A stretch of DNA of 64,000 nucleotides, taken from the NCBI GenBank assembly GCA_022822005.1, contig JAJECO010000023.1:29904-93903 (forward strand), read 5' to 3'. This stretch comes from Candidatus Poribacteria bacterium. Its GTDB lineage: Bacteria > Poribacteria > WGA-4E > PCPOR2b. The first letter of the stretch is position 1. Each line of letters opens with the position of its first letter. Positions 1-56,387 of this stretch are shown piece by piece. A program made the position numbers and the translations under genes. The notes beneath the pieces were generated by a model, which saw only the letters and a program-made list of their open reading frames with translations, was not told the DNA's origin and searched no databases.

Positions 1-1
1 G

Positions 2-403: not shown

Positions 404-564
404 AATAAAGTGCACAGGGACGGTATCGCCCTAAGCAACTAGACGATCGCCTCCCCATTGTGATGGACGAGGTGACGCCGATTGAGACAGAGTTGAAACT
501 TCCACCCCTTGATGGTGGAACGCAGGAGAAAAGAGTAAATCATGAAATACAATAAGGAGCAAAA

Positions 565-1002: not shown

Positions 1003-1023
1003 TTACAATAGCGAGGTGAAAGT

Positions 1024-1440
1024 ATGGTTTCAGAGCAAGTAATTAGGCGAATTACCGGTAAAACTGGTTTGTATTATACCGCTTTCAAGTTGTCTGAGCG
1101 TGGTTGGAATGTGTTTCCTCAAGAGAACGGTCTATATAAGCCTAATATATTGGTCTGTGAGAGCCTAGACGGAAACCGAAAGATGTGCGTCCAAGTCAGG
1201 AGCTTTAAGGATCGAGATCCCGTTCAAATCAGCCAAGGGGGTCTGAAGTGCAATTATTGGGTTATGGTGCACGCCATAGCGTCTGGCAAACCAGAGGCTT
1301 ACATTCTGCCTATTGATGAAGTCAAAAAACATCTGAAGCACAACGCCGGTGGGAGTGCCGTATGGTTAAATGAGAAGTTTAAGTATTATGAAGACAATCA
1401 ATTCAAAGAAAAATGGGAACAAATAGGAAACGGCTTTTAA
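1024..1440 (+). CDS. putative Hjc-like PD-(D/E)xK-fold protein, catalytic residues apparently degenerate
   Basis: GAGGTGA RBS. The pattern G..(S)ER.....-NILV-...VQVRS resembles the Hjc-type nuclease core, but with N/Q/R at the usual D/E/K positions. Confidence 0.35.
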   Translation: MVSEQVIRRITGKTGLYYTAFKLSERGWNVFPQENGLYKPNILVCESLDGNRKMCVQVRSFKDRDPVQISQGGLKCNYWVMVHAIASGKPEAYILPIDEVKKHLKHNAGGSAVWLNEKFKYYEDNQFKEKWEQIGNGF

Positions 1441-1674
1441 TCAACCCAGTATAAATTTACACTTTTTCACGTGAAGCGATGTCCTTGTTGATTTTGTGTA
1501 AAGCGTTTAGGGCAAATGCTTGATAAAATATGTTATCAGACATTTTGAGGTCATTTTTGGGGAAAGAAAGAAAATAAGATCCAGTCATAGCAAGGATCTT
1601 AACAGTCTCAATGAGCAAAAAATATGTCCGATAATTGTAGCGGAGCGATTTTGAAGTAGAACAAGGAGAACAAT

Positions 1675-1965
1675 ATGGCAAATTTACATGGTTTACAACC
1701 TAAACAACTTGCTCGGATTGGTATGTTTTATCTTGAGGAAGCAATTTTAGATGTGTTGTTTGAAGCAGAAATGGGCAATCGGCAAGGATTAGGTCCTACA
1801 GAAATTAGCAAGAGGCTTGGCACTTTTCTGCCATGGTATAACCCCGGAGATCTTATCGTTGCCGGTTTTCTAATAAAACTCGAAAATCAAGGCTTAGTCG
1901 TGCATCCTAGGCGCGGTGATTGGAGACTATCCGAAAAGGGGCGTGAAAATCGCCGTCACGATTGA
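1675..1965 (+). CDS. small winged-helix DNA-binding protein
   Basis: AAGGAG RBS. A 96-aa protein with the segment ISKRLG...GFLIKLENQGLV, typical of a wHTH recognition helix and wing. Confidence 0.5.
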   Translation: MANLHGLQPKQLARIGMFYLEEAILDVLFEAEMGNRQGLGPTEISKRLGTFLPWYNPGDLIVAGFLIKLENQGLVVHPRRGDWRLSEKGRENRRHD

Positions 1966-1981
1966 TGAAGGGAGCGTCAAT

Positions 1982-2461
1982 ATGCGAACCGTCAGGGTTG
2001 AATGGGAGGGACCACTCTCTCTTGACAAAGTGAAAGAGTTAGACGACAGAGACGAGGACTGCGGTTTATACCAGATCTATGGTCGCCACATCATCTTCGG
2101 AGATGATTCCCTGCTCTACATTGGAATGACAACCTCGACTTTCAGGCGACGATTTATTGATGGCACCGAACCACACATATCGTGGCTAGTGGAGGAGGAG
2201 GGGGTGTCGGTTTATGTGGGTCGAATTGCGGAAGAAGATTATGAGCATGATCCGCCACATTGGTCAGATTGGGAGAATGTTCTCAAGGATGCTGAAGCAC
2301 TTACCATCAAATGGCACTCACCGCCATATAATTCACGCAACATTGAAACCTATAACGGTCAGCGCCTGGAAGTTGTGAATCTTGGTAGTTACGGTAGTTT
2401 ATGCAAAAAATACAGAAGTCGAGACCGTAAAAGGTGGGGGTGGTCAGGAGATTACGGTTAG
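1982..2461 (+). CDS. GIY-YIG nuclease-domain protein
   Basis: GLYQIYG...LLYIGMT...FRRRF matches the GIY-(10-15 aa)-YIG-Arg core. ATG at 1982 with a GAAGGGA RBS. A GTG at 1916 is an alternative start that would overlap the wHTH gene. Confidence 0.6.
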   Translation: MRTVRVEWEGPLSLDKVKELDDRDEDCGLYQIYGRHIIFGDDSLLYIGMTTSTFRRRFIDGTEPHISWLVEEEGVSVYVGRIAEEDYEHDPPHWSDWENVLKDAEALTIKWHSPPYNSRNIETYNGQRLEVVNLGSYGSLCKKYRSRDRKRWGWSGDYG

Positions 2462-2773
2462 TCTTTTGATTGTTTCCAAATGAAAGGGGGAATTAGCGAA
2501 TAAGAGCAGCATAGAATCAATAGGGAGGCACCATTGAGATAACGTAAGACAAAAGTTGTGTCGTCGGAAATTTGCTTTGCCTGTTTTAATGCCGAAACAT
2601 TAAGCGAATGTGCCGGTTCATTCCAGAAGGGTTTTAGAAATGCCGATGGCAATCCGAGACGTGAAAAGGTCACGATAAATATCCGAAGAATCCCGGATGA
2701 CGCCCTTGTTGCTATTCGGGAATTCTAGCCCAAAACCACGGCGACGTTGGACGGGTAGAGGAAGATTTGACAA

Positions 2774-3205
2774 ATGGATTCTATAAAAGACTTTATAACT
2801 GACTGGTCAATTATGGGAGCTATTCTAAAAATAGTAATAGTTGCTTCTCCATTCTTAATCAGACAAATAGCCAAACTTGTCAACCTCAGAAAAGACATGG
2901 AAGGACTCAAATTAATTATAGACGGGGACAAAAAGCAAATTGCTACTGACAGAGCAAATACTAAGGAAGATATGGAGTACGCTAAGAAATACAGGGACGA
3001 AGCTAGGGCAGATAAAATCGCAATTGAACAAATGAAAGAAGATATTACAAAAAAAGTAGAAGCCGTCAACAGTCAACTTTCTAGCGCCCGAAGCCGCGCA
3101 GAGCTTAGCTCCATAGGTGGTGAAACAGAAAGGGCTAGCAGAGAAAAACGGATAGAGTTAGAAAAGATCGCAGAGATAGTTAAGAAACACCTGAAGCCAT
3201 ATTAA
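2774..3205 (+). CDS. membrane-anchored coiled-coil protein
   Basis: N-terminal hydrophobic helix (WSIMGAILKIVIVASPFLI) followed by a Lys/Glu-rich coiled-coil. About 35% GC. Confidence 0.45.
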   Translation: MDSIKDFITDWSIMGAILKIVIVASPFLIRQIAKLVNLRKDMEGLKLIIDGDKKQIATDRANTKEDMEYAKKYRDEARADKIAIEQMKEDITKKVEAVNSQLSSARSRAELSSIGGETERASREKRIELEKIAEIVKKHLKPY

Positions 3206-3284
3206 AGATTGGAACTTTTCAAGAGGTGTTGTGGAATACTTTGAATATCGACGCATTTCAAAAAAATAAAAGGAGATTGCCATT

Positions 3285-4004
3285 ATGCAACTTGGAGACA
3301 TACCCGACTCAAACCTTCGCACTGTGATTGCCGTTCAACTTGAAGAGCAGGCAGTTAATGATTTAGCTGATGCGCGGGAATTAAATTTACAAGAGACTGG
3401 TATAAGCAAATTGGATGGACTTGAAAAGGCAAAGAAGTTGGTTGTTCTAAGAGCAGGCGGTAATTCTATCTCCGATTTGTCGCCTTTGAAAGAGTTAACC
3501 AATTTGAAGACTCTCGATTTTTGGGGGAATACGATAGAAAATATTTTACCTCTAAAAGGATTGAAAAATTTGCGTGGATTGTGGTTCCAGAACAATCAGA
3601 TAAAGGATTTGTCCCCTTTGGAGGACTTAATCAACCTAGAATATCTGAATCTTGAGGGCAATAAGATAAAACATATTACCTCTTTACAGGGGCTAACTAA
3701 TCTGAGGTGGCTATGGCTACAAAACAACTCAATAGAAGACATATCATCGCTTGCTGATATGGAAGGATTGGAGGGTTTGTGGCTTCAGGATAACTTGATA
3801 ACCAACATTGCGACTCTGAAGAGAATTTCCAAACTGACAAGGCTGGAGATTGACATAAATTCACTGTCAGATTTTGAATATCTAAAAGGACTAAGGAATA
3901 AGCATAGACTAGTGGTTGAGATAGAATCTCCAGTACCTTTGAGTTTCTTCGACGGTGACGGGCGAGGAGGCATCCTGAAAGTGGTTGTTAGGGAATATAA
4001 TTAG
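3285..4004 (+). CDS. leucine-rich-repeat (internalin-type) protein
   Basis: About eight 22-aa repeats of LxxLxxLxxLxLxxNxIxDIxxL. AAGGAG RBS. No signal peptide. Confidence 0.7.
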   Translation: MQLGDIPDSNLRTVIAVQLEEQAVNDLADARELNLQETGISKLDGLEKAKKLVVLRAGGNSISDLSPLKELTNLKTLDFWGNTIENILPLKGLKNLRGLWFQNNQIKDLSPLEDLINLEYLNLEGNKIKHITSLQGLTNLRWLWLQNNSIEDISSLADMEGLEGLWLQDNLITNIATLKRISKLTRLEIDINSLSDFEYLKGLRNKHRLVVEIESPVPLSFFDGDGRGGILKVVVREYN

Positions 4005-5411: not shown

Positions 5412-5459
5412 AAAAACGAGAAGACGAGCTAAAGCCTTTGTCCCGTTATCTCGTTTTCT
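5412..5459. terminator. hairpin between convergent genes, possibly a bidirectional terminator
   Basis: AAAACGAGA....TCTCGTTTT inverted repeat between the MFS gene (+) and the isomerase gene (-). Confidence 0.3.
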
Positions 5460-5490
5460 ACTTCCTTGCGTCTTTGCGTTAAGATAGGTT

Positions 5491-6201
5491 TCACTGACCG
5501 AATCCGAGACTGCGGAGATGTGCGACCGCTTGCTTCATATCTCCGGGTGCCTGCATAATCCACGGTCCCTGAAAACCCACGTCTTCAAGAACCCCCTTGA
5601 CACCAGCGAAATCCACCGCCCCCGTACCCAGCGTTGGAAAATCCCATTCGTCAAAATTACCGCTGTGGTCCTTCAAATGGGCGCTCACAACATACTGTGC
5701 AATCTTTTTCAATTCCGTGACCGCATCCGCCCCATCCGTATAGAAACTGATATTCCCCGTATCGTAATTGATTCTTACATTCGGGTGGTCGGTAGCGTCC
5801 ATGGTTTTCAACGCAACCTCGGCATTATGCACCAGCGATGGATGCGTTTCAAGTGCGACAGTGATGCCACGCTGTGCCGCCTCATCACCCATCGTTTTCA
5901 GCCAATCGCAGACCTTTGGTCTCATTTCTTCATCGGCTTTGATGCTACTGAGTGCGAGATCTATGCCCATCTTGACCGCCGCATCAAACGCGTTTACCCA
6001 CGCCTGGCTCGCCGCCTCAGTGGCAACGGTATCCTCTTCGAGATATAACGCGGTCAATCCGATGGCTTGCAGCCCCTTCGCTTTGAGATCGGCCTGAAGT
6101 TCTTCGACCTTGTCAGGTTCAGGGGCACCGACTTGAACATATCGGATGCCGTGTTCTAAAAGCTCTGCACCGCCCCCTATATTTGCCAATACGTTTGCCA
6201 T
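5491..6201 (-). CDS. sugar phosphate isomerase/epimerase (xylose-isomerase-like TIM barrel)
   Basis: ALETHP and HLKD motifs. AAGGAG RBS. Confidence 0.75.
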   Translation of the reverse strand: MANVLANIGGGAELLEHGIRYVQVGAPEPDKVEELQADLKAKGLQAIGLTALYLEEDTVATEAASQAWVNAFDAAVKMGIDLALSSIKADEEMRPKVCDWLKTMGDEAAQRGITVALETHPSLVHNAEVALKTMDATDHPNVRINYDTGNISFYTDGADAVTELKKIAQYVVSAHLKDHSGNFDEWDFPTLGTGAVDFAGVKGVLEDVGFQGPWIMQAPGDMKQAVAHLRSLGFGQ

Positions 6202-6420: not shown

Positions 6421-7293
6421 ATGCTTAACGATTCACAAATCGCGACATTCAAAGAAGAAGGTTACCTGATTATTGAGAACCTCTTTACCGATGACGATCT
6501 GCGCCCCGTGAAGGACGAGTTCAGCACCGTTGTCGAACAGCAGGCACAGCAACTACATCAAGCTGGGCGGCTGAGCGATTTGTACAAAAACGAGTCATTT
6601 GAACAGCGTCTGGCAAAAATTGCTGCCGAAGCACCCGAAGCGACCTCCGCACTACAAACCCGTGCCCATAAAGACGAGGCATTCTTTCAGTTCCTGAAAC
6701 ACCCCAAAATTCTTGACCGGGTCGAGTCGCTGGTGGGTCCCGATATCCTGTGCCACCCCTCCTACAACATCCATCCACGCCTACCGGGAGGATATACCAC
6801 CCCGCATCAGGATGCCGGATTTTACCTGCCCGATGGCGATGAGACGTTGATTCTGGCATGCCTGATACCGCTCGTTGATACCACACCTGAAAATGGGTGT
6901 CTATGGGTCGCCCCACGCCGACATAAGGAAGGCGTTTTGCGCCATGTCTGGGGCGAGGATGGACTAAACATCTCCCCTGAAGAGCTCTCAGAAGAAGAAC
7001 GACAGCCAGTGCCTACAAAGGTAGGCAGCATGGTGATGTTTACCAGTATGACGCCGCACGGTTCGCGGGTTAATAATACAGATACCATCCGTTGGAGTAT
7101 GGATCTGCGCTACCAAGCACTGGGGAAGCCCACGGGACGTTGGTATGTCCCCGGCTTTGTCGCTCGGAGCCGCTCCAACCCTGAATTAGAAACACCGAAC
7201 TGCACGGCGTGGATTGCTGAAGTGGAACGCGTCGAGCAGAAGGCGAATAAATACCCCGAATGGCCACGCTACCGTTGGCCCCAGACATCATAG
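6421..7293 (+). CDS. phytanoyl-CoA dioxygenase (PhyH) family Fe(II)/2OG oxygenase
   Basis: N-terminal F..EGYL.I.N.F pattern, the HQD iron ligands and a distal His. Confidence 0.75.
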   Translation: MLNDSQIATFKEEGYLIIENLFTDDDLRPVKDEFSTVVEQQAQQLHQAGRLSDLYKNESFEQRLAKIAAEAPEATSALQTRAHKDEAFFQFLKHPKILDRVESLVGPDILCHPSYNIHPRLPGGYTTPHQDAGFYLPDGDETLILACLIPLVDTTPENGCLWVAPRRHKEGVLRHVWGEDGLNISPEELSEEERQPVPTKVGSMVMFTSMTPHGSRVNNTDTIRWSMDLRYQALGKPTGRWYVPGFVARSRSNPELETPNCTAWIAEVERVEQKANKYPEWPRYRWPQTS

Positions 7294-8631: not shown

Positions 8632-9399
8632 ATGGCATCAATCGATTTTTCATTGATCGACAAGGTTGTTCTCGTAACCGGTGCAGGGAAAGGTATCGGC
8701 AAAGAGATTGCGCTCGCTTGTGCGGACGCCGGAGCCGACATCGTCGCAGGAAGCCGCACCGTCAGTGAAGTTGAACAGGTAGCGGAGGAGGTTCGCAAAG
8801 CAGGTCAACGCGCAGAAGCATGGCAACTGGACGTTGCGGACGTTTCAAGCATTGAGGGATTCATACAGAAGACGCTCGACACCTTTGGTAGAATTGATGT
8901 ACTAGTCAACAACGCCGGAGTCAACAAGGTCCAGCCCGCGCTTGATGTCACCGAAGAAGACTTCGATTATATCGTGGACGTAAACTTTAAGGGCACCTTC
9001 TTCATGAGCCAGATGACGGCGAAGTCGATGATTGAGAACGGTATTCGGGGACGTATCATCAACATCAGTTCGCAAGTCGGTGTTGTCGGCGGACCACTAC
9101 GAGCACCCTATAGCGGCGCGAAGGGCGCCGTTTGCCTACTCACCAAATCGTTAGCCGCGGAATGGGCAACGCACGGCATCACAGTCAACTCGGTCGCACC
9201 AACCGTCACCCGCACACCCCTTTCAGAAGGGGCACTGAAAAACCCCGAATTTCAGAAGATGGTAAACGAAAATGTTCTGATGGGGCGGATCGCAGAACCG
9301 GAAGAAATCGCAGCAGCGGTTATCTACCTCGCAAGCGATATAGCCGGCATGGTCACCGGACACACACATCTTGTCGATGGCGGATGGACTGCGGTTTGA
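8632..9399 (+). CDS. SDR-family oxidoreductase
   Basis: TGAGKGIG, NNAG and YSGAKGAV motifs. Confidence 0.85.
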   Translation: MASIDFSLIDKVVLVTGAGKGIGKEIALACADAGADIVAGSRTVSEVEQVAEEVRKAGQRAEAWQLDVADVSSIEGFIQKTLDTFGRIDVLVNNAGVNKVQPALDVTEEDFDYIVDVNFKGTFFMSQMTAKSMIENGIRGRIINISSQVGVVGGPLRAPYSGAKGAVCLLTKSLAAEWATHGITVNSVAPTVTRTPLSEGALKNPEFQKMVNENVLMGRIAEPEEIAAAVIYLASDIAGMVTGHTHLVDGGWTAV

Positions 9400-12481: not shown

Positions 12482-12567
12482 TCTTTTTGGATAAATCCGA
12501 TGCCGTTGCGCGAAGGAAGCCTTGCGCCTGCGGAATCGGAACACGATACACAATCAAGGAGATTATA

Positions 12568-13680
12568 ATGGCCGAAAATATTTACTCAAGATTGGGTGCA
12601 GTTCCAATTATCAACGCTGCGGGTAACTCCACCGCCATGGGTGGCTCAACCCCTACCCCAATAGTCAAACAGGCAATGGAAGAAGCGGAAGAATACTTTG
12701 TGGACATGGAAGAACTCCTCGAAAAATCTGGAGACCATATCGCTTCTCTGGTCGGCGCGGAGGCCGCTTATGTCACGGCAGGCTGCTACGCTGCCATGGT
12801 ACTGTCCACCGCTGCGTGTATGACCGGCAATGATCAGGAAAAAATGGATCAGCTTCCAGATACCACCGGCATGAAGGACGAGGTCGTCATCCAAGCAAAA
12901 CAGCGATACGGCTTTGATCGGGCTTACACCATACCGGGAAGCAAGCTGATAGAAGCGGGAGACGAAAGCGGGTGCACGGCAGAACAACTGGAAGCCGCAA
13001 TCGGTCCCCAGACCGCAGCCGTTATCCACTTTATTAGCCCAGATCCGGATGTCACTGTTGTCTCGCTCGAAGATACGGTCAGCATAGCACGTAAACATAA
13101 CGTGTACGTCATCGCCGACGCCGCTTCGCAGATCTTCCCAATCAATTATTTCAAGGACACCGCCACATCGGCAGACCTGGTCTGCTTCGGCGGCAAATAT
13201 GTCCACGGTCCCCACTCAGCTGGATTTGTGGCTGGCAAGAAGGACCTCATCCAAGCCGTCGCTGCCCACGGTTTCATCGGACCCCGTCCCTTGGGACGCG
13301 GGATGAAGATAGACCGACAGGAAATCATCGGACTCACCGTCGCCCTCGACCAATGGTTCACGATGGACCACGAGGAACGCTTCGACGAATATCGGCAAAA
13401 GTTCGCTGTCATTGAGCGAGCAATTGAAGGTGCGCCCGGCGTGGAAGAAACCAAGGAAGTTACCACGCAAAGGTATTGGGGCGTTGAACTCCACGTCGTC
13501 GTCAACGCGGCGGAGGCAGCACGTAGTGCACGTGAACTCATCGAAGATCTTGATGCTGGCGATCCCTGCATCAAAGTTGGCGGCGAAGGCGAAGATGCCG
13601 TCGTTATCCGGGTAGACAACTTAGAGGAAGGTGATGAACATACCATCGCCCAACGGTTGAGAGCCCTGCTCGCCGGTTAA
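12568..13680 (+). CDS. SelA-family (PF03841-like) PLP-dependent enzyme of the DgaE-like lyase type
   Basis: N-terminal NIYSRLG..PIINAAGN.T..GGS...P.V..AM..A...FVD...L..K.G as in D-glucosaminate-6-P ammonia-lyase-like proteins. AAGGAG RBS. It lacks the N-terminal domain of a true SelA. Confidence 0.55.
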   Translation: MAENIYSRLGAVPIINAAGNSTAMGGSTPTPIVKQAMEEAEEYFVDMEELLEKSGDHIASLVGAEAAYVTAGCYAAMVLSTAACMTGNDQEKMDQLPDTTGMKDEVVIQAKQRYGFDRAYTIPGSKLIEAGDESGCTAEQLEAAIGPQTAAVIHFISPDPDVTVVSLEDTVSIARKHNVYVIADAASQIFPINYFKDTATSADLVCFGGKYVHGPHSAGFVAGKKDLIQAVAAHGFIGPRPLGRGMKIDRQEIIGLTVALDQWFTMDHEERFDEYRQKFAVIERAIEGAPGVEETKEVTTQRYWGVELHVVVNAAEAARSARELIEDLDAGDPCIKVGGEGEDAVVIRVDNLEEGDEHTIAQRLRALLAG

Positions 13681-16402: not shown

Positions 16403-17095
16403 ATGAGAATCCTCGTCACCGGTGCTGCTGGGGCTGTTGGTTCGGCGGTCGTGAAAGGACTGAAAGACCAGTATTCGCTGCGTGGGTTTGACCGCGTACC
16501 GATGCCGGATATTGCAGAGGCGATTGTCGGGGATGTCGGTGACTTTGAGGCAGTACTCAAAGCCACCGAGGATATGGAGGCGGTGATCCACCTCGCGGGC
16601 AATCCCTCCGGCGGCGCACCGTGGGAAGATATCCTCCAGAATAACATCATCGGCACATACAACGTCTTTGAAGCCGCCCACCAAAACGGTGTCCGTCGGG
16701 TCGCCTTCGCCAGCCGCGCTGGGCTGCTCGCACCCTACCCAAAAGATATCATGCGGACGGTTGATATGACCCCTCGACCGGAGACCTACTATTCAATCAG
16801 CAAGGTCTTCGGAGAGAATCTGGGCTATATGTATTCAGCGCGGTTTGATATGGAATTTGTCTCAGTCCGGATCGGCAACTTCAAGCGAGACCGTGACCTT
16901 CCGGATCACCCCCATCAACTGAGCCACGGCGACGCAGCTCTCGTATTTGAGCGGGCAGTTACACAACCGGGGGTGAAGTTCGAGGTTGTGTTCGGCGTCT
17001 CAGACAGCACATGGGCACTCTACGACCTGGAACATGGGCGGCAGGTCATCGACTACCACCCACAGGATAAATCCGAGGCAGAACCAGAGATCTGA
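16403..17095 (+). CDS. NAD-dependent epimerase/dehydratase family protein
   Basis: N-terminal VTGAAGAVG Rossmann motif. Confidence 0.7.
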   Translation: MRILVTGAAGAVGSAVVKGLKDQYSLRGFDRVPMPDIAEAIVGDVGDFEAVLKATEDMEAVIHLAGNPSGGAPWEDILQNNIIGTYNVFEAAHQNGVRRVAFASRAGLLAPYPKDIMRTVDMTPRPETYYSISKVFGENLGYMYSARFDMEFVSVRIGNFKRDRDLPDHPHQLSHGDAALVFERAVTQPGVKFEVVFGVSDSTWALYDLEHGRQVIDYHPQDKSEAEPEI

Positions 17096-30017: not shown

Positions 30018-30106
30018 AGGATAGTAGGGCTATTATACTCAAAAGATTTTCCCACTGCATTATCGCTTATGGCAAGAAAACAGTTCACAACCAAGGAGGC
30101 AAACCG

Positions 30107-30589
30107 ATGCAAAGATTGAACCGAGTCATTGTTTGGGTAATTGTGTTGTTTCTTCAGCAGCAATTACTCGTTCAGGTATTTGCCGCTCAACCGGAGCGGA
30201 TTACCTCGAAAGAACTTAAGCACTTATTAGATGCCAAAGAGAAGGTAATTCTGGTTGATGTGCGTGGCCAGATTAATTACCACCTCGGACACATCCCCGG
30301 AGCGGTTTCGATGCCATTTCCAGATGGCATTGAAACGAGACATCAAACACTTCCCGCCGAAGGGCTAATTGTTTTATACTGAAGCTGACCGGCGGAAGCC
30401 ACAAGTGCCGGTGCGGCACAAATGTTAATAGAGGAGTTTGGTTTTCCCCCGGAGCGGGTAAAAGTGCTCCAAGGGGGTTTTCCCGCATGGAGAGACGCGG
30501 GCTTTCCAGTCGAAGTTACGGCAGCGGTCCAATCAAAAGAAAAACGCTTCGTCCTGTGGGGACAGATTAAATCAAACAGTCGAAGGTGA
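30107..30589 (+). CDS. signal-peptide rhodanese-domain protein with two in-frame TGA codons at the catalytic loop (candidate selenoprotein or pseudogene)
   Basis: A single frame reads MQRLNRVIVWVIVLF...GLIVLY-TGA-S-TGA-PAEATSAGAAQML...LQGGFPAW. TGA codons at 30380-30382 and 30386-30388. The second TGA aligns with the catalytic Cys of CxxGxRS. A CCGGC...GCCGG hairpin follows at 30389-30411. Confidence 0.5.
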
Positions 30590-30601
30590 CACACAATCCA
30601 A

Positions 30602-32107
30602 ATGAACGAATATGATCTAACCATCATCGGTGGAGGAAGCGCAGGACTTGTCCTAGCGGTAGCGGGTGCAAAGCTAGGAAAAAAAACCGCTCTCGTCGAA
30701 AAGCACCGCTTGGGAGGCGACTGCCTCTGGACAGGGTGCGTCCCCTCGAAAGCCCTCCTCAAATCAGCAAAGATCGCTCATTACATCAAAGAAGCCGAAA
30801 AATACGGTGTCCTCACGAAAGACGCTCAAGTGGATTTTGCACGCGTCATGGCGTATGTCCGCAGCACCCAACACACCATCGAGCAAGAACATGATAACCC
30901 TGAACGATTCCGCGAAATGGGAGTAAACATCATCTTTGGGGAAGGGCATTTCGAGTCGCCAAGGACCTTTGTGGTGCAAGATGCAGAGAACGACCAAACC
31001 CTTACGCTCAAAAGCAAAAAATTTGTCATCACAACCGGCTCCCGTCCAACCGCACCCGATATCCCCGGAATGGATTCGGGCGATTATCTGGACAGCGAAA
31101 ATGTCTGGGAATTAGACGAACTGCCTGAAAGATTATTGGTAATAGGCGCGGGGCCCATCGGGATTGAACTCGGACAGGCATTTCACCGTCTGGGCGCGAA
31201 AGTGACAATTGTGCAACGCAGCGATCGAATTTTAACGAAAGAGGATACCGAAGTCTCAGAGAAAATGCTGGGTTACCTTCAGGAAAATGGGGTTGAAATC
31301 CTCTTAAATACCAACCCCGTTCAGATTGATCGGATCAATGCCCCGCATAACAACGAACTTAATCCGGATATAGCGGTCTGGGGATCGCAAAATACCGACC
31401 CATCAGATGAGTATCATGTCAAACTCAAGGCAGCCGACACGGGGAACAAGCGCGAAATCACCGTCAATCGGACCCTGATTGCAGCAGGACGGACACCAAA
31501 CATCGAAGGATTAGGACTGGAAGAAATTGGCGTCAAGATCGGAAAAAGAGGGATCGAAGTCAACAACAAGCTGCAAACAACCGTCAAAAATATTTATGCC
31601 GCTGGCGATGTGGTCGGACATTACCTTTTTACCCATGTTGCAGCGTTTCAAGCAACGCAGATCGTCCGGAATATCTTCTTCCCCGGTTCCAGCGCGATAA
31701 ACTATTCTGTTGTCCCTTGGACAACCTTCTCCGATCCAGAGGTCGCTCGGTGCGGCTTGACTGAAGAGGAAGCACGCGAGAAACATGGAGATGTCGATGT
31801 TTTCAGAGTGGACCTACACGATGTCGATCGCGCAGTCGCCGAAGGAGAGACCAAAGGATTCATCAAAGTCATTGCAACCCGTTGGAAGGGTAAAATCTTG
31901 GGCGTCCACCTAGTTGGACCGAGCGCGGGAGAGGTTATCCACGAGTTCGTCTTGGCGATGAATGCGGACCTCCCCCTGCGGAAGTTGGCGGGAATCATTC
32001 ACGTCTATCCAACCTTTTCGAGCATTGTCTGGCGGGTTGCCGGAAAATGGCTTGCCGAAGGCACCCTAATCCAAACACTACGCGGGATGCTTCGGAAAGG
32101 AAATTAA
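30602..32107 (+). CDS. class I FAD-dependent pyridine nucleotide-disulfide oxidoreductase (dihydrolipoyl dehydrogenase family)
   Basis: GGGSAG FAD motif, GGDCLWTGCVPSK redox disulfide and C-terminal HVYPT. Confidence 0.8.
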   Translation: MNEYDLTIIGGGSAGLVLAVAGAKLGKKTALVEKHRLGGDCLWTGCVPSKALLKSAKIAHYIKEAEKYGVLTKDAQVDFARVMAYVRSTQHTIEQEHDNPERFREMGVNIIFGEGHFESPRTFVVQDAENDQTLTLKSKKFVITTGSRPTAPDIPGMDSGDYLDSENVWELDELPERLLVIGAGPIGIELGQAFHRLGAKVTIVQRSDRILTKEDTEVSEKMLGYLQENGVEILLNTNPVQIDRINAPHNNELNPDIAVWGSQNTDPSDEYHVKLKAADTGNKREITVNRTLIAAGRTPNIEGLGLEEIGVKIGKRGIEVNNKLQTTVKNIYAAGDVVGHYLFTHVAAFQATQIVRNIFFPGSSAINYSVVPWTTFSDPEVARCGLTEEEAREKHGDVDVFRVDLHDVDRAVAEGETKGFIKVIATRWKGKILGVHLVGPSAGEVIHEFVLAMNADLPLRKLAGIIHVYPTFSSIVWRVAGKWLAEGTLIQTLRGMLRKGN

Positions 32108-32171: not shown

Positions 32172-32675
32172 ATGAGATTCAATATATGGACATCAAGCGC
32201 GATCGTGCTGATTAGCTTCGCACTTATAAGTGCTATCGGTTGCGAATCATCCGACCACGATGAAGATAGAGAACATGACGCAATCGGCGAACGGACAGGG
32301 CATCTGCCCAGTCACGCAGAGGGCGGCGGCGAAGGGGAAGAGTCCGGGGGTGAGTTTACTAAAGACCAAACTTACGACCACGTGCGAAACGGTGTGCGGT
32401 TAGAAATCGTCTATGACGCAGCAACGAATGCCTTCGTTGGAACGGTAGAAAACACGACGAACCAAACCGTGTCCAGAGTGCGCGTTGAAGTTCACCTATC
32501 TAACGGAATAGAACTGGGACCCACGACACCGACCGACCTTGTTCCCGGTCAAAAGGTAACTGTTGAGCTCAGTGCAGCAGGACAGGACTTTAATAAATGG
32601 TCTGCCCATCCAGAGACTGGCTCAAGTGAACACGGCGGAGCGGAGCAACACGACGAAGACGGAGAACATGACTGA
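32172..32675 (+). CDS. lipoprotein with His/Asp/Glu-rich N- and C-terminal tails (candidate metal-binding protein)
   Basis: ISAIGC lipobox. Tails read HDEDREHD...HAEGGGEGEE and EHGGAEQHDEDGEHD. Confidence 0.5.
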   Translation: MRFNIWTSSAIVLISFALISAIGCESSDHDEDREHDAIGERTGHLPSHAEGGGEGEESGGEFTKDQTYDHVRNGVRLEIVYDAATNAFVGTVENTTNQTVSRVRVEVHLSNGIELGPTTPTDLVPGQKVTVELSAAGQDFNKWSAHPETGSSEHGGAEQHDEDGEHD

Positions 32676-53167: not shown

Positions 53168-54502
53168 CTACTGATAGGACATGTTAGCAAATCGCATCTG
53201 CGTTTTGTTGAATTCTAATCTGACTGTGCCTGTTGGTCCGTTGCGCTGTTTTTTGATAAGCAGATCGGCAGTTCCTTGATCATCCGCAGCTTCATCATAG
53301 TAGTCTTCTCGATATAAGAAGGCAACCAAATCCGCATCCTGCTCGATCGCTCCAGATTCTCGCAGATCAGATAATAACGGCCGTTTATCCGGACGTTTCT
53401 CAACCTCACGACTCAGTTGGGAGCACGCAATGATCGGTGTATCCAGTTCCCAAGCGAGGGTCTTGAGCGCACGTGAAATATCAGAAATCTCTTCTACCCG
53501 CCCGGTATATCGACCCGAACCACTCAGCAGCTGCAAATAATCAACGATAATTACCGCGAGGTCTTCGTGTTCGCCTTTCAAGCGCCGACCTTCCGCTCGC
53601 AGCATCTGTACAGTGACACCCCTCGTATCATTAATAAAAATAGGCACAGACATTAAACTGCCAGCAGCCTGTGACAACCCTGGCCAATCCTCCTCTGTCA
53701 AGTTTCCAGTACGAAGATGACCAAAGTTAATTTGGGCTTCAGCAGCCAACATCCGTAATAGCACCTGCTGCGTCGGCATCTCAAGGCTGAATATCGCAAC
53801 CGGCAGCTGCTGCTCAATGGCGATATTCTGAGCCATATTCAGCACTAACGTACTTTTGCCCATGCTGGGTCGCGCCGCAATGATAATTAAATCGCCACGC
53901 TGTAATCCAGAGGTCATTAAATCAAAATCGGTAAAGCCCGTCGGTACACCAATAAACTGCTCGCGCTTATGGGACAGCTCTTCGATCTCTCCCAACGTCT
54001 CCTTGATAATAGAACCAACCGATACAAATCCTTTGTCATTATCCGCTTGACCGAGGTGAAAAATTCCCTCTTGGGCTTGATCCAGAACCTCCCGAAGCTC
54101 TTGTTCCTGATCACGCGCTAGATTGCTGATCTGCTCCCCTGTCTGCACCAGCTGCCGGCGCGTCGATTTCTCCCAAACAATCTGGGCATAAAATTCAGCA
54201 CTTTCCGTTTCGACAATCCGGGCTTGTAGGTCATAAAGATACAAGTCCCCCCCCGATCGATTGAGCTCGTTTTTCCTTTCAAGCTCATCTGACACAAGGA
54301 GCGCGTCCACCCTGTTATGGCGCTCATAAACTGCGAGAATCGCTGCATAAATGAGCTGATGATCTGTAGTAAAAAAAACCTCTGGAGTATGACCGAGAAT
54401 AGCAAGCACACGGGGAATCACCGCACTATCTACCATCATTGACCCAAGCACAGCTTGTTCCGATTCCCTGTCGTGAAGGGCTTCCGTAGTTTTGGTATTC
54501 AT
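53168..54502 (-). CDS. dnaB: replicative DNA helicase
   Basis: DnaB N-terminal domain plus the RecA-like Walker A GARPSMGKST. Confidence 0.9.
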   Translation of the reverse strand: MNTKTTEALHDRESEQAVLGSMMVDSAVIPRVLAILGHTPEVFFTTDHQLIYAAILAVYERHNRVDALLVSDELERKNELNRSGGDLYLYDLQARIVETESAEFYAQIVWEKSTRRQLVQTGEQISNLARDQEQELREVLDQAQEGIFHLGQADNDKGFVSVGSIIKETLGEIEELSHKREQFIGVPTGFTDFDLMTSGLQRGDLIIIAARPSMGKSTLVLNMAQNIAIEQQLPVAIFSLEMPTQQVLLRMLAAEAQINFGHLRTGNLTEEDWPGLSQAAGSLMSVPIFINDTRGVTVQMLRAEGRRLKGEHEDLAVIIVDYLQLLSGSGRYTGRVEEISDISRALKTLAWELDTPIIACSQLSREVEKRPDKRPLLSDLRESGAIEQDADLVAFLYREDYYDEAADDQGTADLLIKKQRNGPTGTVRLEFNKTQMRFANMSYQ

Positions 54503-54541
54503 CGCTCAATCCCGGAGTTTATGACCGGTGGAGTCTGTCCG

Positions 54542-54994
54542 TTAAGATGACTCTTCACGAACCACAACAACCTGAATATCTGCTGCAACGTCAGCGTGGA
54601 AACGGATGGGTACTGTGAAAACACCCAGTTCCCGGATCGGTTCCTCTAGTTCAATATTCCGCCGATCCACTTCAATATCCTGGCTAGCGAGCGCGTCTGC
54701 AATATCCATCGAGGTAATAGATCCAAATAATCGATCATTTTCCCCGGCGCGCCTTTGAATGGTACAAGTTACTTCTGCAATACGACCTGCGAGCTCCTCA
54801 GCCCTGACTCTCGCTTTTTCGCCTTGGGCTGCTAGCAATTGCCGCTCATGCTCAAGCATCCGTCGGTTCTTCTCTGTTGCTCGAACCGCAAGTTGCATGG
54901 GGATGAGGTAGTTACGTGCATAACCATTAGCAACTGTTAAAATGTCCCCCTCATCTCCAAGTGTTTCAACCCTTTTTTTAAGGATAACTTCCAT
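54542..54994 (-). CDS. rplI: 50S ribosomal protein L9
   Basis: MEVILKKRVETLGDEGDILTVANGYARNYLIP. Confidence 0.9.
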   Translation of the reverse strand: MEVILKKRVETLGDEGDILTVANGYARNYLIPMQLAVRATEKNRRMLEHERQLLAAQGEKARVRAEELAGRIAEVTCTIQRRAGENDRLFGSITSMDIADALASQDIEVDRRNIELEEPIRELGVFTVPIRFHADVAADIQVVVVREESS

Positions 54995-55081
54995 AACATG
55001 CCTCTCAATTTTTACGACTCAGAATTTCTACAATACGAGTCCGAAAATCATGGTGCGTAGTTTCCCACCTACAAAAATGAT

Positions 55082-55369
55082 CTACTGTTGTGTTGTAAAA
55101 GGCACTAAGGCAATGTTACGCGCACGTTTGATCGCCCGCGTCACGTGCCTCTGATGCTTCGCACAGTTTCCCGAAACCCGTCGTGGCAAAAGTTTACCGC
55201 GATCCGTCATAAAACCTCTGAGTATTTCAGTACTCTTATAATCAATGAAATCTACCTTATCCATGCAAAATCGACACCGCTTGCGACGACCCCGGCGAAA
55301 CGGAGCATCACGGTTATCTCTAAAATTGTCACGGTTATCTCTTGTATCTCTTCGTTGGTCCCTTGCCAC
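55082..55369 (-). CDS. rpsR: 30S ribosomal protein S18 (with N-terminal basic extension)
   Basis: C.FC...V..IDYK....L..F....GKILPRR..G.CAK.QR.V..AIKRAR. Confidence 0.85.
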
Positions 55370-55467
55370 GATTCCAGTCCTCCAATTTGTAATACAGAAG
55401 AAAAGCGGGCATCAACTGCGCCCGCTTTTCGTTCTTAGTGTTCGTTAAGTTTATGTAGCGGTTGATC

Positions 55468-55917
55468 TCAGAAAGGAATGTCGTCGTCAGTCGCAGACGA
55501 TCCCTCTTCCCCCGAAAATTCGGCTGATGGGGCAGCTGACGCGGGTGACGCTTGATCGTAACCCCCACCACCGTCACCATCTTGACGACCACCTACAAAT
55601 TCAAACCGATCAACCATAACGCTATGTTTACTCCGCCTTTGACCATCATCGGTTTCCCATGATTGGAGTCTCAGACGACCTTCAACCAATATGGGACGCC
55701 CCTTCTGAAAGTACTCGTTGATAACCTCAGCTGTTCTTCCAAAAGCATCAAGATCCACAAAACAAACGTCTTCTTTCCTCTCACCGGACTGACGATCGTT
55801 GTAAACATGACTGACAGCGAGCCCAACTCTTGCCACCGCTGTTCCGCTCGGAAGATACTGTAATTCTGGATCACGGGTGAGATTTCCCATGAGTATGACC
55901 TTGTTGTAACTTGCCAT
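55468..55917 (-). CDS. ssb: single-stranded DNA-binding protein
   Basis: MASYNKVILMGNLTRDPELQY OB fold and the acidic C-terminal DDDIPF. Confidence 0.9.
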   Translation of the reverse strand: MASYNKVILMGNLTRDPELQYLPSGTAVARVGLAVSHVYNDRQSGERKEDVCFVDLDAFGRTAEVINEYFQKGRPILVEGRLRLQSWETDDGQRRSKHSVMVDRFEFVGGRQDGDGGGGYDQASPASAAPSAEFSGEEGSSATDDDIPF

Positions 55918-55976
55918 GATTCTTATCTCCTTAATAATCTATCTGATGCTGTGCTCCATCTACCGTGTCACTAACA

Positions 55977-56387
55977 TCAAATGTATTCATCACCTTTATC
56001 TTCATCTTCGCTCTCAATATCTTCAAAAGGACTAGCATCTGTCGAGTCACCTTCTTCTTCCTGTGATGCCGGCGTATGGCTCGGAGTAAGTGCGGCTAGA
56101 TCCCCTTCAAATTGAACAACCATGTGCTTGATAATCCGTTCCGTAATCCGATAGTGACCATTCAGTTGAGCTACAAATTCAGGGCCACTTTCAAACACGA
56201 TAAGCACATAATGGCCTTCGCCGTGCTGCTTAACTGCATAAGCCAGCTTTCTCTTCCCCCAAGGATCTACCTTTAGAACCTTACCCCCACCAGATTCAAT
56301 AGCCGTCTTGACACCTTCAGTAACGTCGTTTGTTTGACTCTCATCTAAATCTGGATTAATAATAAAAATAGTTTCGTAATGACGCAA
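55977..56387 (-). CDS. rpsF: 30S ribosomal protein S6 (acidic C-terminal tail)
   Basis: MRHYETIFIINPDL. Confidence 0.9.
   Translation of the reverse strand: MRHYETIFIINPDLDESQTNDVTEGVKTAIESGGGKVLKVDPWGKRKLAYAVKQHGEGHYVLIVFESGPEFVAQLNGHYRITERIIKHMVVQFEGDLAALTPSHTPASQEEEGDSTDASPFEDIESEDEDKGDEYI

What the first reader, a model, noticed from the sequence alone, without database searches (positions are those of the whole stretch)
30107..30589. Rhodanese gene with two in-frame TGA codons in its catalytic loop, one exactly at the active-site Cys position
One reading frame encodes a complete signal-peptide rhodanese: ...GLIVLY[TGA]S[TGA]PAEATSAGAAQMLIEEFGF...LQGGFPAW. Aligned to CxxGxRS-type rhodaneses, the second TGA (30386-30388) falls on the catalytic cysteine. 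The first TGA is two codons earlier. A CCGGC-N13-GCCGG stem-loop, with an internal GGC-GGAA-GCC tetraloop, starts immediately after the second TGA. TGA is a genuine stop elsewhere in this window, for example at 9397-9399, 1963-1965 and 17093-17095, so genome-wide recoding is unlikely. Rhodanese-like sulfurtransferases are among the reported prokaryotic selenoprotein families. The alternatives are a pseudogene with two nonsense changes 3 bp apart, or a sequencing error.
Basis: partly seen in the sequence, partly recalled or inferred. Interest (0 to 1): 0.85.

Follow-up and report, generated by a model that had tools for sequence, protein, structure and literature searches.

The report
Two-selenocysteine rhodanese gene in Poribacteria
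This is very probably a real gene for a small exported sulfur-transfer (rhodanese) protein of sponge-symbiont Poribacteria. Its two neighbouring active-site cysteines are both encoded by UGA and so are most likely read as selenocysteine; this kind of protein is known but rare, and public annotation misses it here.

Summary
Window 30107-30589 (+) is a 160-codon rhodanese ORF with in-frame TGA codons at 30380-82 and 30386-88 (…LY-TGA-S-TGA-PAEATS…).

It is neither a pseudogene nor a sequencing error. All 22 orthologous loci fetched, all with Candidatus Poribacteria-type sequence, keep TAC TGA AGC TGA. About 75 protein clusters in the public collection are cut at the same codon. The reading frame after the TGAs is under the same purifying selection as before them (dN/dS 0.23 against 0.27). 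TGA is an ordinary stop for 12 of 50 Pfam-supported genes in the window.

Both TGAs fall on the two nearly invariant cysteines of a widespread Y-C-[ST]-C-P rhodanese subfamily. The closest curated family is NF041203 'rhodanese_LYCAU', a CxU selenoprotein; the score here is below its cut-off.

Synonymous change collapses about six-fold in codons 95-108. That stretch holds a hairpin at 30405-30419 (GUGCCG-GUG-CGGCAC). It fits the published bacterial SECIS rules for both UGAs, with spacings of 28 and 22 nt.

The selABCD genes could not be checked in this genome. Support for selenocysteine use is indirect: a second gene with a conserved UGA in the same lineage, and the literature. A UxU rhodanese was reported in 2007, so this is a new member of a known kind.

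The parts
30093..30099 (+). Shine-Dalgarno-like AAGGAGG, 7 nt before the ATG
   Evidence: Read directly from the sequence.
30107..30589 (+). Rhodanese coding sequence: 160 codons plus stop, including two recoded UGA codons
   Evidence: Translation. Pfam PF00581 E=4.6e-15. Full-length in-frame orthologues in 22 loci. dN/dS is 0.27 upstream and 0.23 downstream of the UGAs.
30107..30184 (+). Predicted N-terminal signal peptide or membrane anchor (MQRLNR + hydrophobic core + VFA|A)
   Evidence: Inference from the sequence: basic residues precede the hydrophobic stretch. The Acidobacteria Cys homologues L013 and L014 also start with signal-peptide-like segments. No signal-peptide predictor was available.
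30380..30382 (+). UGA 1 (codon 92), at the first Cys of the Y-C-x-C-P motif
   Evidence: The Cys at this column is at least 90% conserved in alignment A4.
30386..30388 (+). UGA 2 (codon 94), at the second Cys of the motif. This is the position that carries Sec in the known CxU (LYCAU) rhodanese selenoproteins.
   Evidence: It aligns to the catalytic Cys of 1yt8 domain 2.
30389..30430 (+). Zone of suppressed synonymous change (codons 95-108), indicating an RNA-level constraint
   Evidence: dS is 0.078 here against 0.45-0.50 elsewhere in the gene. There is 1 synonymous variant in 15 codons against 8-16 elsewhere.
30405..30419 (+). Best SECIS candidate: GUGCCG-GUG-CGGCAC (6 bp, loop GUG at 30411-13), -9.5 kcal/mol. 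It lies 28 nt after UGA1 and 22 nt after UGA2.
   Evidence: The five core pairs are kept in all 16 distinct orthologue sequences, and loop G and U are invariant. It meets all four bSECIS rules quoted in PMC13188914.
30384..30417 (+). It is the minimum-free-energy fold of the free RNA (-17.5 kcal/mol).
   Evidence: Pairs 19-41 and 20-40 are broken in 6-7 of 16 sequences, and there is one compensatory change in L009.
30602..32107 (+). Neighbouring class-I pyridine-nucleotide disulfide oxidoreductase (CLWTGC redox pair), 12 nt downstream. It is a frequent but not obligatory neighbour.
   Evidence: Pfam and NCBIfam. It is directly adjacent in 9 of the 15 loci where this could be judged, the window included. 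It lies 2.4-4.4 kb away in L003, L004, L008, L009 and L011.

Best explanation
The locus is an intact selenoprotein gene of a Candidatus Poribacteria bacterium. It encodes a small, probably exported, single-domain rhodanese. Both cysteines of the family's Y-C-S-C-P active-site motif are encoded by UGA, giving Y-U-S-U-P.

Proposed mechanism (inferred, not shown): one SECIS hairpin inside the coding sequence (30405-30419, triloop G-U-G) recruits SelB-GTP-Sec-tRNA(Sec). It serves both UGA codons, which lie 28 and 22 nt upstream of its loop. When either UGA is in the ribosomal A site, the 5' arm of the competing hairpin (30384-30417) is occluded or unwound, which leaves its 3' arm free to form the SECIS hairpin.

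The product would carry a vicinal Sec-x-Sec pair in the rhodanese active-site loop. That pair could form a diselenide, carry a persulfide or perselenide, or chelate a soft metal or metalloid. Its function would be chalcogen transfer or redox chemistry outside the cytoplasm.
For: **Shown**
- Both TGAs and the full frame are conserved in 22 loci from independent assemblies, 63-100% identical in the N-terminal part.
- About 75 protein clusters, grouped at 90% identity, are all cut at codon 92.
- dN/dS is 0.23 downstream and 0.27 upstream of the TGAs. There are no stops in frame and 1-6 stops in the other frames.
- Both TGAs fall on Cys that are at least 90% conserved in the Y-C-[ST]-C-P-[NA]-E subfamily.
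- The best NCBIfam hit is the curated selenoprotein family NF041203 rhodanese_LYCAU.
- dS drops about six-fold in codons 95-108.
- Hairpin 30405-30419 satisfies the published bSECIS rules: loop 3-9 nt, stem 4-16 bp, G followed by G or U at the start of the loop, spacing 16-37 nt, energy at or below -7.5 kcal/mol (rules from PMC13188914). It becomes the minimum-free-energy fold once the 5' sequence is masked.
- TGA is a normal stop for 12 of 50 genes in the window.

**Indirect support for selenocysteine decoding in this lineage**
- A second gene, 3-5 kb from the rhodanese in L003, L004, L008, L011 and L016, has a conserved TGG-TGA-[AG]TA-TTC-TGT (W-U-x-x-C) in a TlpA/ResA-like thioredoxin fold.
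- That gene has a GCAACUU-GUA-GAGUUGC hairpin 21 nt after its UGA.
- Poribacteria WGA-3G is scored positive for SelA, SelB and SelD (Table S4 of PMC5649159).
- Sec-type [NiFeSe] hydrogenases are reported from Poribacteria (PMC13582414).
Against: - No selA, selB, selC or selD was found in the 64-kb window or in the fetched loci, and the rest of the genome could not be searched.
- The two ORFs in the window with sel-like hits are paralogues: a DgaE/selA_rel lyase and an AIR-synthase-like protein scoring below every curated cut-off.
- The SECIS hairpin has no compensatory changes, because its sequence hardly varies.
- The energy of the hairpin falls to -5.2 to -5.5 kcal/mol in L003, L004 and L015.
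- The free RNA prefers the competing hairpin in most orthologues, and L009 shows one compensatory change that preserves that competitor.
- One SECIS serving two UGAs 6 nt apart has not been demonstrated experimentally for any such motif. It is only proposed for UxxU hydrogenases (PMC13582414).
- Selenium incorporation, export and function are all inferred.
Confidence: 0.82

Rival explanations
1. The gene is real and recoded, but one or both UGAs are read as cysteine, not selenocysteine. The agent would be a SelB-dependent tRNA(ReC)/selC*-type tRNA, or selenium supply would decide between Cys and Sec.
For: PMC13582414 reports tRNA(ReC)-like genes in about 56% of genomes with UxxU hydrogenase motifs, against about 2% of other Sec-type genomes. 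It states that either UGA may then be read as Cys. Both positions are Cys in all homologues.
Against: No tRNA(ReC) is known for Poribacteria, and none was seen in the DNA held here. Keeping two UGAs plus a constrained SECIS across the lineage merely to insert Cys would have no obvious advantage over TGC or TGT.
Confidence: 0.1
2. Two overlapping RNA elements divide the work. The 5' hairpin (30384-30417, or its GGC-GGAA-GCC tip) acts for UGA1 and the 3' hairpin (30405-30419) acts for UGA2. Alternatively, the 5' hairpin masks the SECIS until the ribosome arrives.
For: The two folds are mutually exclusive. The 5' fold is the minimum-free-energy fold of the free RNA (-17.5 kcal/mol). Masking the 5' nucleotides switches the fold to the 3' hairpin. 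L009 has a double compensatory change (C20G/G40C) that preserves the 5' fold.
Against: The 5' hairpin's loop has 11 nt and starts only 12 nt after UGA1, outside the published bSECIS ranges. Its pairs 19-41 and 20-40 are broken in 6-7 of 16 distinct sequences, and in L008 and L011 the free RNA already prefers the 3' hairpin. One compensatory event among 16 sequences is matched by 59 of 500 shuffles.
Confidence: 0.12
3. The gene is a pseudogene, or the TGAs are sequencing or assembly errors. Translation would stop at codon 92, giving a 91-residue fragment, which is how public annotation treats it.
For: Gene callers annotate a 91-aa hypothetical protein. Two cluster representatives (P0014, P0075) are frameshifted readings of the same DNA.
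Against: The identical TGA-AGC-TGA occurs in 22 independent loci. The 66 codons after it stay in frame, end at the same place and have dN/dS 0.23. A fragment ending before the active-site loop would lack half of the rhodanese fold.
Confidence: 0.02
4. TGA is reassigned genome-wide to Trp or Gly (genetic code 4 or 25).
For: None beyond the two in-frame TGAs.
Against: TGA ends 12 of 50 Pfam-supported genes at the expected length. These include ribosomal protein S6, SSB, IspH and an SDR whose Pfam match runs to residue 253 of 255. Homologues have Cys, not Trp or Gly, at both positions.
Confidence: 0.01

Closest known systems
NCBIfam NF041203 'rhodanese_LYCAU', rhodanese-related (seleno)protein. 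[quoted passage not shown]
   Same: It is the best-scoring curated family (E=1.8e-21). The match covers profile positions 5-124 of 126, so the architecture is the same: a short N-terminal segment plus one rhodanese domain. Both have the L-Y-C/U-x-U motif, with Sec at the second position.
   Different: The score is 76 bits against a curated cut-off of 115, so the protein is not a member by NCBI's rule. Here the first Cys is also UGA, giving two Sec and LY-U-S-U-P instead of LY-C-A-U. The lineage is Poribacteria.
UxU form of 'rhodanese-related sulfurtransferase' found in deltaproteobacterial symbionts of the gutless worm Olavius algarvensis (Zhang and Gladyshev 2007, PMC1976440)
   Same: [quoted passage not shown] It also comes from a marine invertebrate symbiont.
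   Different: They come from a different phylum. Only one form was noted there, whereas here the UxU state is fixed across a whole lineage.
Cys-type Y-C-[ST]-C-P-[NA]-E rhodaneses. These are stand-alone with a signal peptide or transmembrane helix, or fused to DedA (for example P0076, P0078, P0081; Acidobacteria loci L013 and L014).
   Same: 36-40% identity. Both Cys positions, the P-x-E-x-[ST]-S loop and the C-terminal LQGGF..W...G.P motif are conserved.
   Different: They use TGC or TGT for both cysteines. Many have the rhodanese domain after a transmembrane helix that is followed by basic residues, which suggests a cytoplasmic orientation.
Closely spaced double-Sec motifs read with one SECIS: UxxU in group 4 [NiFeSe] hydrogenases (PMC13582414), UxxU in FmdB-family proteins and UxxxxU in TsoB (PMC13188914)
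   Same: There are two UGAs a few codons apart, upstream of one predicted SECIS with G in the first or second loop position. The same open question applies: how does one element serve both?
   Different: Here the spacing is the tightest of these motifs, with one codon (6 nt) between the UGAs. The protein fold and chemistry are different.
Periplasmic single-domain rhodanese PspE and cytoplasmic GlpE of E. coli (from general knowledge; weak NCBIfam hits)
   Same: A single rhodanese domain of about 100 residues. Like PspE, it appears to be exported.
   Different: Those proteins have one catalytic Cys in a CX4[RS] loop and no second chalcogen residue. GlpE and PspE score only 20-30 bits here.

Membership tests
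Bacterial selenoprotein gene (SelB/SECIS-dependent UGA recoding) | In-frame UGA aligned to Cys in homologues (Sec/Cys pair) | tested here: met
   Both UGAs fall on Cys that are at least 90% conserved in 91 homologues.
Bacterial selenoprotein gene (SelB/SECIS-dependent UGA recoding) | UGA conserved in orthologues, and the downstream frame evolves as coding sequence | tested here: met
   22 of 22 loci keep TGA AGC TGA. dN/dS is 0.23 downstream and 0.27 upstream.
Bacterial selenoprotein gene (SelB/SECIS-dependent UGA recoding) | Stem-loop meeting the bSECIS consensus: loop 3-9 nt, stem 4-16 bp, G in loop position 1 or 2, 16-37 nt after the UGA, energy at or below -7.5 kcal/mol | tested here: met
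   Hairpin 30405-30419 has a 6-bp stem, loop GUG, spacings of 28 and 22 nt, and -9.5 kcal/mol in the window (rules). It is weaker (-5.2 to -5.5) in L003, L004 and L015.
Bacterial selenoprotein gene (SelB/SECIS-dependent UGA recoding) | Base pairs of the SECIS supported by covariation | tested here: inconclusive
   The sequence is almost invariant. There are no double changes, and the only variation is C-G to U-G at one pair. The constraint shows up instead as a six-fold drop in dS.
Bacterial selenoprotein gene (SelB/SECIS-dependent UGA recoding) | selA, selB, selC (tRNA-Sec) and selD in the same genome | not testable with these tools
   None is present in the window or the fetched loci, and whole genomes cannot be scanned. 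The literature gives SelA, SelB and SelD in Poribacteria WGA-3G and Sec-type hydrogenases in Poribacteria. A second gene with a conserved UGA occurs in the same genomes.
Bacterial selenoprotein gene (SelB/SECIS-dependent UGA recoding) | Selenium actually present in the protein | not testable with these tools
   This needs 75Se labelling or mass spectrometry.
NCBIfam NF041203 rhodanese_LYCAU (CxU rhodanese selenoprotein) | Whole-protein HMM score at or above the curated cut-off of 115 bits | tested here: not met
   76.1 bits with Cys substituted for both Sec. The Cys homologues P0076, P0081 and P0077 also score 60-77 bits.
NCBIfam NF041203 rhodanese_LYCAU (CxU rhodanese selenoprotein) | L-Y-C-A-U motif: Cys at the first position and Sec at the second | tested here: not met
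   The motif here is L-Y-U-S-U. The second position matches, but the first is UGA, not Cys.
Pfam PF00581 Rhodanese-like domain | Domain match above the gathering score | tested here: met
   56.3 bits against 22.2, covering residues 34-130 and profile positions 2-101 of 102. An AlphaFold2 model of the Cys homologue P0081 (pLDDT 88.7) matches solved rhodaneses.
Pfam PF00581 Rhodanese-like domain | Nucleophile (Cys or Sec) at the first position of the active-site loop after the central strand | tested here: inconclusive
   One of the two UGAs occupies it, but the alignments disagree on which. A4 and 1yt8 domain 2 place the second UGA there; A2 and 3tp9 place the first. In the model the loop is C137-S-C139-P-A-E142.
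Y-C-[ST]-C-P-[NA]-E (CxC) rhodanese subfamily | The motif and the C-terminal LQGGF..W..G.P signature | tested here: met
   Y-U-S-U-P-A-E-A-T-S and VLQGGFPAWRDAGFPVE are present. The motif distribution is YCSCPNE 37, YCSCPAE 23 and so on.
UxU rhodanese-related sulfurtransferase of Olavius symbionts (PMC1976440) | Sequence orthology to the published UxU form | not tested
   Only the text statement is available. The sequences and figure are not held.

The most novel reading that the evidence does not exclude
A single intragenic SECIS hairpin directs selenocysteine insertion at two UGA codons separated by only one codon. The result would be a vicinal Sec-Ser-Sec (diselenide-capable) centre in an exported rhodanese that is fixed across the sponge-symbiont phylum Poribacteria. 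The SECIS would be unmasked only when the ribosome melts a competing upstream hairpin. That would be the tightest natural double-Sec recoding site known, and a tractable model for how SelB tolerates variable UGA-SECIS spacing.
Probability: 0.3. Interest if true: 0.6.

Novelty: new member of a known kind. Interest (0 to 1): 0.4.

Why it matters
- **Annotation:** a conserved Poribacteria gene is mis-annotated everywhere as a 91-residue hypothetical protein. The same is true of a neighbouring W-U-x-x-C thioredoxin-fold gene. This suggests the selenoproteome of these abundant sponge symbionts is under-called.
- **Mechanism:** two UGAs 6 nt apart in front of one nearly invariant hairpin form a compact natural test case. 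It asks whether one bacterial SECIS can serve two codons, a question the 2026 work on UxxU hydrogenases left open.
- **Chemistry:** a Sec-x-Sec pair in a rhodanese loop would differ from the single persulfide-carrying Cys of classical rhodaneses. It hints at diselenide redox chemistry or at handling of soft metals or metalloids in the cell envelope.
- **Limits:** it does not change the current picture of selenoprotein biology. The family and even the UxU motif are already on record.

Tried and rejected
- **Rfam, whole window, gathering threshold:** no hit. This carries little weight for a bacterial SECIS.
- **ARAGORN on the window and 14 loci:** no tRNA of any kind, so no selC.
- **Search for other read-through ORFs in the window:** only adjacent-gene artefacts and non-coding frames. 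No second selenoprotein candidate lies in the window itself.
- **Sel-like ORFs in the window:**
  - 12487-13680 hit Pfam SelA weakly, but it is a DgaE/selA_rel lyase (183 bits to TIGR01437, 34 bits to TIGR00474).
  - 59797-60804(-) hit SelD at 89 bits, below the cut-off of 125. It hits HypE and ThiL equally and lacks the N-terminal Gly-rich Cys/Sec loop.
  - Neither is part of the Sec machinery.
- **Structure prediction of the window protein with Cys in place of Sec:** The Cys homologue P0081 was modelled instead.
- **JGI metagenome scan with the protein:** no relative found. The family is seen in ENA, NCBI and Logan data only.
- **RNAalifold on 13 sequences:** it gave a long-range outer stem made of G-U pairs with no covariation. 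I did not adopt it.
- **Covariation counts:** they could not discriminate between the two hairpins.
- **Operon with the downstream disulfide oxidoreductase:** I considered it as a redox partner. Adjacency is not obligatory, because two membrane-protein genes are inserted on the opposite strand in L003. The reductase also has no signal peptide, while the rhodanese appears to be exported.
- **MerA identity of that reductase:** rejected. It scores 392 bits against a cut-off of 454 and has no C-terminal Cys pair.
Full report
**1. The observation**

Window 30107-30589 (+) translates as MQRLNRVIVWVIVLFLQQQLLVQVFAAQPER...GLIVLY*S*PAEATSAGAAQMLIEEFGFPPERVKVLQGGFPAWRDAGFPVEV...SNSRR*.

- The two internal stops are TGA at 30380-82 and 30386-88.
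- The terminal stop is TGA at 30587-89.
- An AAGGAGG lies 7 nt before the ATG.
- With Cys substituted at both TGAs, the protein matches Pfam Rhodanese (E=4.6e-15, residues 34-130).
- The inverted repeat CCGGC(30389-93)/GCCGG(30407-11) and the inner GGC-GGAA-GCC are there. They form part of the minimum-free-energy fold, but that fold is no better than shuffled sequence (z=-0.96).

**2. Not a pseudogene, not an error, not a reassigned code**

- *Protein search.* A search returned about 75 clusters, grouped at 90% identity. Each is a 91-residue protein covering exactly the first 57% of the query, 63-100% identical. The named ones are 'Candidatus Poribacteria bacterium'. Gene callers therefore stop at the same codon in many genomes.
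- *Species genomes.* A scan of one genome per species found 12 Poribacteria loci with a match to residues 1-160.
- *All fetched loci.* With ten more loci fetched by exact protein look-up, all 22 read TAC TGA AGC TGA. Every locus whose contig extends that far continues in frame to a stop at codon 160-161.
- *Selection.* Nei-Gojobori estimates give dN/dS 0.27 for codons 1-91 and 0.23 for codons 109-157. The downstream frame has no stops, while the other two frames have 1-6.
- *Genetic code.* TGA ends 12 of 50 Pfam-supported genes in the window, among them S6, SSB, IspH and an SDR whose domain match runs to its last residues.

Pseudogene, sequencing error and genome-wide recoding are therefore excluded as far as comparative data can exclude them.

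**3. What the two codons replace**

The nearest full-length homologues have ...LYCSCPNEVTAA......TYCSCPAEETSG... and similar. A profile search found thousands of relatives. In 91 aligned members, Y, C, C and P of Y-C-[ST]-C-P are each at least 90% conserved. The commonest forms are YCSCPNE (37), YCSCPAE (23), YCTCPNE (6) and YCTCPAE (6). Both TGAs therefore sit on conserved cysteines, which is the classical Sec/Cys-pair criterion.

The best NCBIfam model is NF041203 'rhodanese_LYCAU, rhodanese-related (seleno)protein'. The score is 76 bits, below its cut-off of 115. The 2026 review of prokaryotic selenoproteins lists this as rhodanese form 3, with motif CxU and one Sec. It lists no UxU rhodanese.

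Zhang and Gladyshev (2007) did, however, note a rhodanese-related sulfurtransferase in Olavius symbionts in which 'a second Sec evolved... resulting in a UxU motif'. The kind is therefore known.

Which of the two positions is the canonical rhodanese nucleophile is unresolved.
- phmmer against 1yt8 domain 2 and alignment A4 put the second TGA on it.
- phmmer against 3tp9 and alignment A2 put the first TGA on it.
- An AlphaFold2 model of the Cys homologue P0081 (pLDDT 88.7) has strand 132-136, loop C137-S-C139-P-A-E142 and a helix from residue 143. Its nearest solved structures are ordinary single-domain rhodaneses.

**4. The RNA signal**

Synonymous variation is almost absent in codons 91-108: 1 variant in 15 codons against 8-16 elsewhere. 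dS is 0.078 against 0.45-0.50. An RNA-level constraint therefore overlies 30389-30430. Two mutually exclusive hairpins fit there.

- It is the minimum-free-energy fold of the free RNA (-17.5 kcal/mol).
- Its loop has 11 nt and begins 12 nt after UGA1 and 6 nt after UGA2.
- Its pairs 19-41 and 20-40 are broken in 6-7 of 16 distinct sequences.
- One sequence (L009) has a compensatory C-G to G-C change.

*(b) GUGCCG-GUG-CGGCAC at 30405-30419.*
- Its energy is -9.5 kcal/mol.
- Its five core pairs are intact in all 16 sequences, with C-G to U-G in three.
- The loop G-U is invariant, while the base before it varies (G, C or A).

The published bacterial SECIS model asks for four things (PMC13188914):
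- a 3-9 nt loop on a 4-16 bp stem;
- a G in loop position 1 or 2, usually followed by G or U;
- 16-37 nt between the UGA and the loop;
- an energy at or below -7.5 kcal/mol.

Hairpin (b) meets all four for both UGAs, with spacings of 28 and 22 nt. Hairpin (a) fails on loop size and on spacing.

If the nucleotides that a ribosome with UGA1 or UGA2 in its A site would occlude are masked, (b) becomes the minimum-free-energy fold in nearly every orthologue.

Covariation cannot decide between the two, because the region hardly varies. I therefore rank (b) as the SECIS on four grounds: universal retention, fit to the consensus, geometry, and the parallel described in section 5. This ranking is an inference.

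**5. Does the lineage decode Sec?**

The window and the fetched loci contain no tRNA. Annotation of about 60 ORFs in the window found no sel gene. The two sel-like hits are a DgaE-family lyase and an AIR-synthase-like protein below all cut-offs. Whole genomes cannot be searched with these tools. The support is indirect, from two sources.

*A second gene in the same genomes.* In L016 a gene 3.5 kb from the rhodanese reads ...VVLAFDRGRW-TGA-IFCLRQLVELQ.... It combines a CarboxypepD_reg domain with a TlpA/ResA-like thioredoxin-fold domain, with W-U-x-x-C in place of WCxxC.
- The same TGG TGA [AG]TA TTC TGT, followed by an in-frame conserved domain, occurs in L003, L004, L008, L011, L025 and L026.
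- More than 50 protein clusters are all cut at that point.
- Many of those clusters lie on contigs of the same length as contigs that carry the rhodanese.
- Its downstream hairpin GCAACUU-GUA-GAGUUGC has a G-U-N triloop 21 nt after the UGA. This is the same design and spacing as hairpin (b) relative to UGA2.

*The literature.*
- Table S4 of Slaby et al. 2017 scores Ca. Poribacteria WGA-3G positive for SelA (2), SelB (1) and SelD (1).
- A 2026 survey lists Poribacteria among the phyla with Sec-type group 4 hydrogenases.
- The same survey raises the caveat that tRNA(ReC) could insert Cys at such UGAs.

**6. Context**

The window carries dnaA (61350-62711), dnaB, the genes for ribosomal proteins S6 and L9, cysS, ispDF and ispH, an Mla transporter, and a block of sugar-modifying enzymes.

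The rhodanese is followed 12 nt later by a class-I pyridine-nucleotide disulfide oxidoreductase with a CLWTGC pair, then a 167-aa ORF, MqnC and an Ldh_2-family dehydrogenase. The reductase is directly adjacent in 9 of the 15 loci where this could be judged. In five others, two large membrane-protein genes on the other strand separate it from the rhodanese by 2.4-4.4 kb.

The rhodanese N-terminus looks like a signal peptide: basic residues, a hydrophobic core, then VFA|A. The closest Acidobacteria Cys homologues look the same. The reductase has no such segment. A direct redox partnership is therefore possible but not supported.

**7. Mechanism, with what is shown and what is inferred**

*Shown:*
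- the gene is intact and selected as a whole;
- both UGAs replace conserved Cys;
- an RNA constraint and a consensus-type hairpin lie at the right distance;
- UGA is otherwise a stop codon.

*Inferred:*
- SelB with Sec-tRNA binds hairpin 30405-30419 and serves UGA1, then UGA2 after a 6-nt advance;
- the competing 5' hairpin is melted by the ribosome;
- the protein is exported;
- the Sec-Ser-Sec pair acts as a diselenide or perselenide (or persulfide) centre, or as a soft-metal ligand.

My confidence that this is a genuine recoded selenoprotein gene is about 0.82. My confidence that both positions carry Sec is somewhat lower.

**8. Verdict**

The thing itself is a new, unannotated, lineage-wide member of a known family (CxU/UxU rhodanese selenoproteins), not a new kind of system. 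It is of moderate interest, mainly as a clean natural case of two UGAs one codon apart in front of one SECIS, and as evidence that Poribacteria selenoproteomes are under-annotated.

Noticed in passing
L016 6169-7476 (-), TGA at 6481-6483; also L003 about 5417-5863 (-), L004 728-1174 (-), L008 6203-6649 (-), L011 6255-6701 (-), L025, L026: A second candidate selenoprotein lies 3-5 kb from the rhodanese in several Poribacteria loci, though not in the window. It combines a CarboxypepD_reg domain with a TlpA/ResA-like thioredoxin fold, with W-TGA-[IV]-F-C in place of WCxxC. A GCAACUU-GUA-GAGUUGC hairpin follows 21 nt after the UGA. More than 50 public protein clusters are cut at the same point.
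   Followed up: yes
window 12487-13680 (+): A 397-aa ORF hits Pfam SelA weakly, but it is a DgaE/selA_rel PLP-dependent ammonia-lyase (TIGR01437, 183 bits) set among sugar-modifying genes. Such paralogues probably inflate the 'SelA/COG1921' counts reported for sponge-symbiont genomes.
   Followed up: partly
window 59797-60804 (-): An AIR-synthase-related protein hits HypE (107 bits), ThiL (98) and SelD (89), all below their cut-offs. It has no N-terminal Gly-rich Cys/Sec loop and no upstream in-frame TGA, so it is not a bona fide SelD. Its function is unknown.
   Followed up: partly
window 61350-62711 (+) and 53168-56387 (-): dnaA (518 bits to TIGR00362) lies near dnaB, ssb and the genes for ribosomal proteins S6 and L9. 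G+C drops to 0.42 at the end of the window and the GC skew is strongly negative over 44-56 kb. The window probably borders the replication origin.
   Followed up: no
window 1-4000, especially 3285-4004 (+): A low-GC stretch (0.42-0.45 against about 0.50-0.54) holds several ORFs with no family match and a leucine-rich-repeat protein. This eukaryote-like repeat type is typical of sponge symbionts, and the stretch may be an acquired island.
   Followed up: no
proteins P0014 (106 aa, on a 760-kb contig) and P0075 (133 aa): Two cluster representatives are frame-shifted readings of the same rhodanese DNA. P0014 reads the +1 frame across the TGAs (…LIFYTEADRRKPQVSVRHEC), as expected after an indel in the T-run GTTTTA just 5' of UGA1. 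P0075 shifts frame further upstream, after …MPFPDGI. These may be long-read homopolymer errors or real pseudogenes in some strains.
   Followed up: partly
L003 10529-14433 (-), and the same position in L004, L008, L009 and L011: Two paralogous membrane proteins of about 650 aa (Pfam DUF6785 in L018 and L021) are inserted between the rhodanese and the disulfide oxidoreductase in part of the lineage. In the same loci, a Lactamase_B_3 hydrolase and a Kelch-repeat protein lie upstream of the rhodanese.
   Followed up: no
window 32172-32675 (+): A 167-aa ORF has a signal-peptide-like start, acidic His/Glu/Asp-rich ends and no Pfam or NCBIfam match. It is conserved between the reductase and mqnC in several loci (70-88% identity) and may be a metal-binding periplasmic protein.
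   Followed up: no
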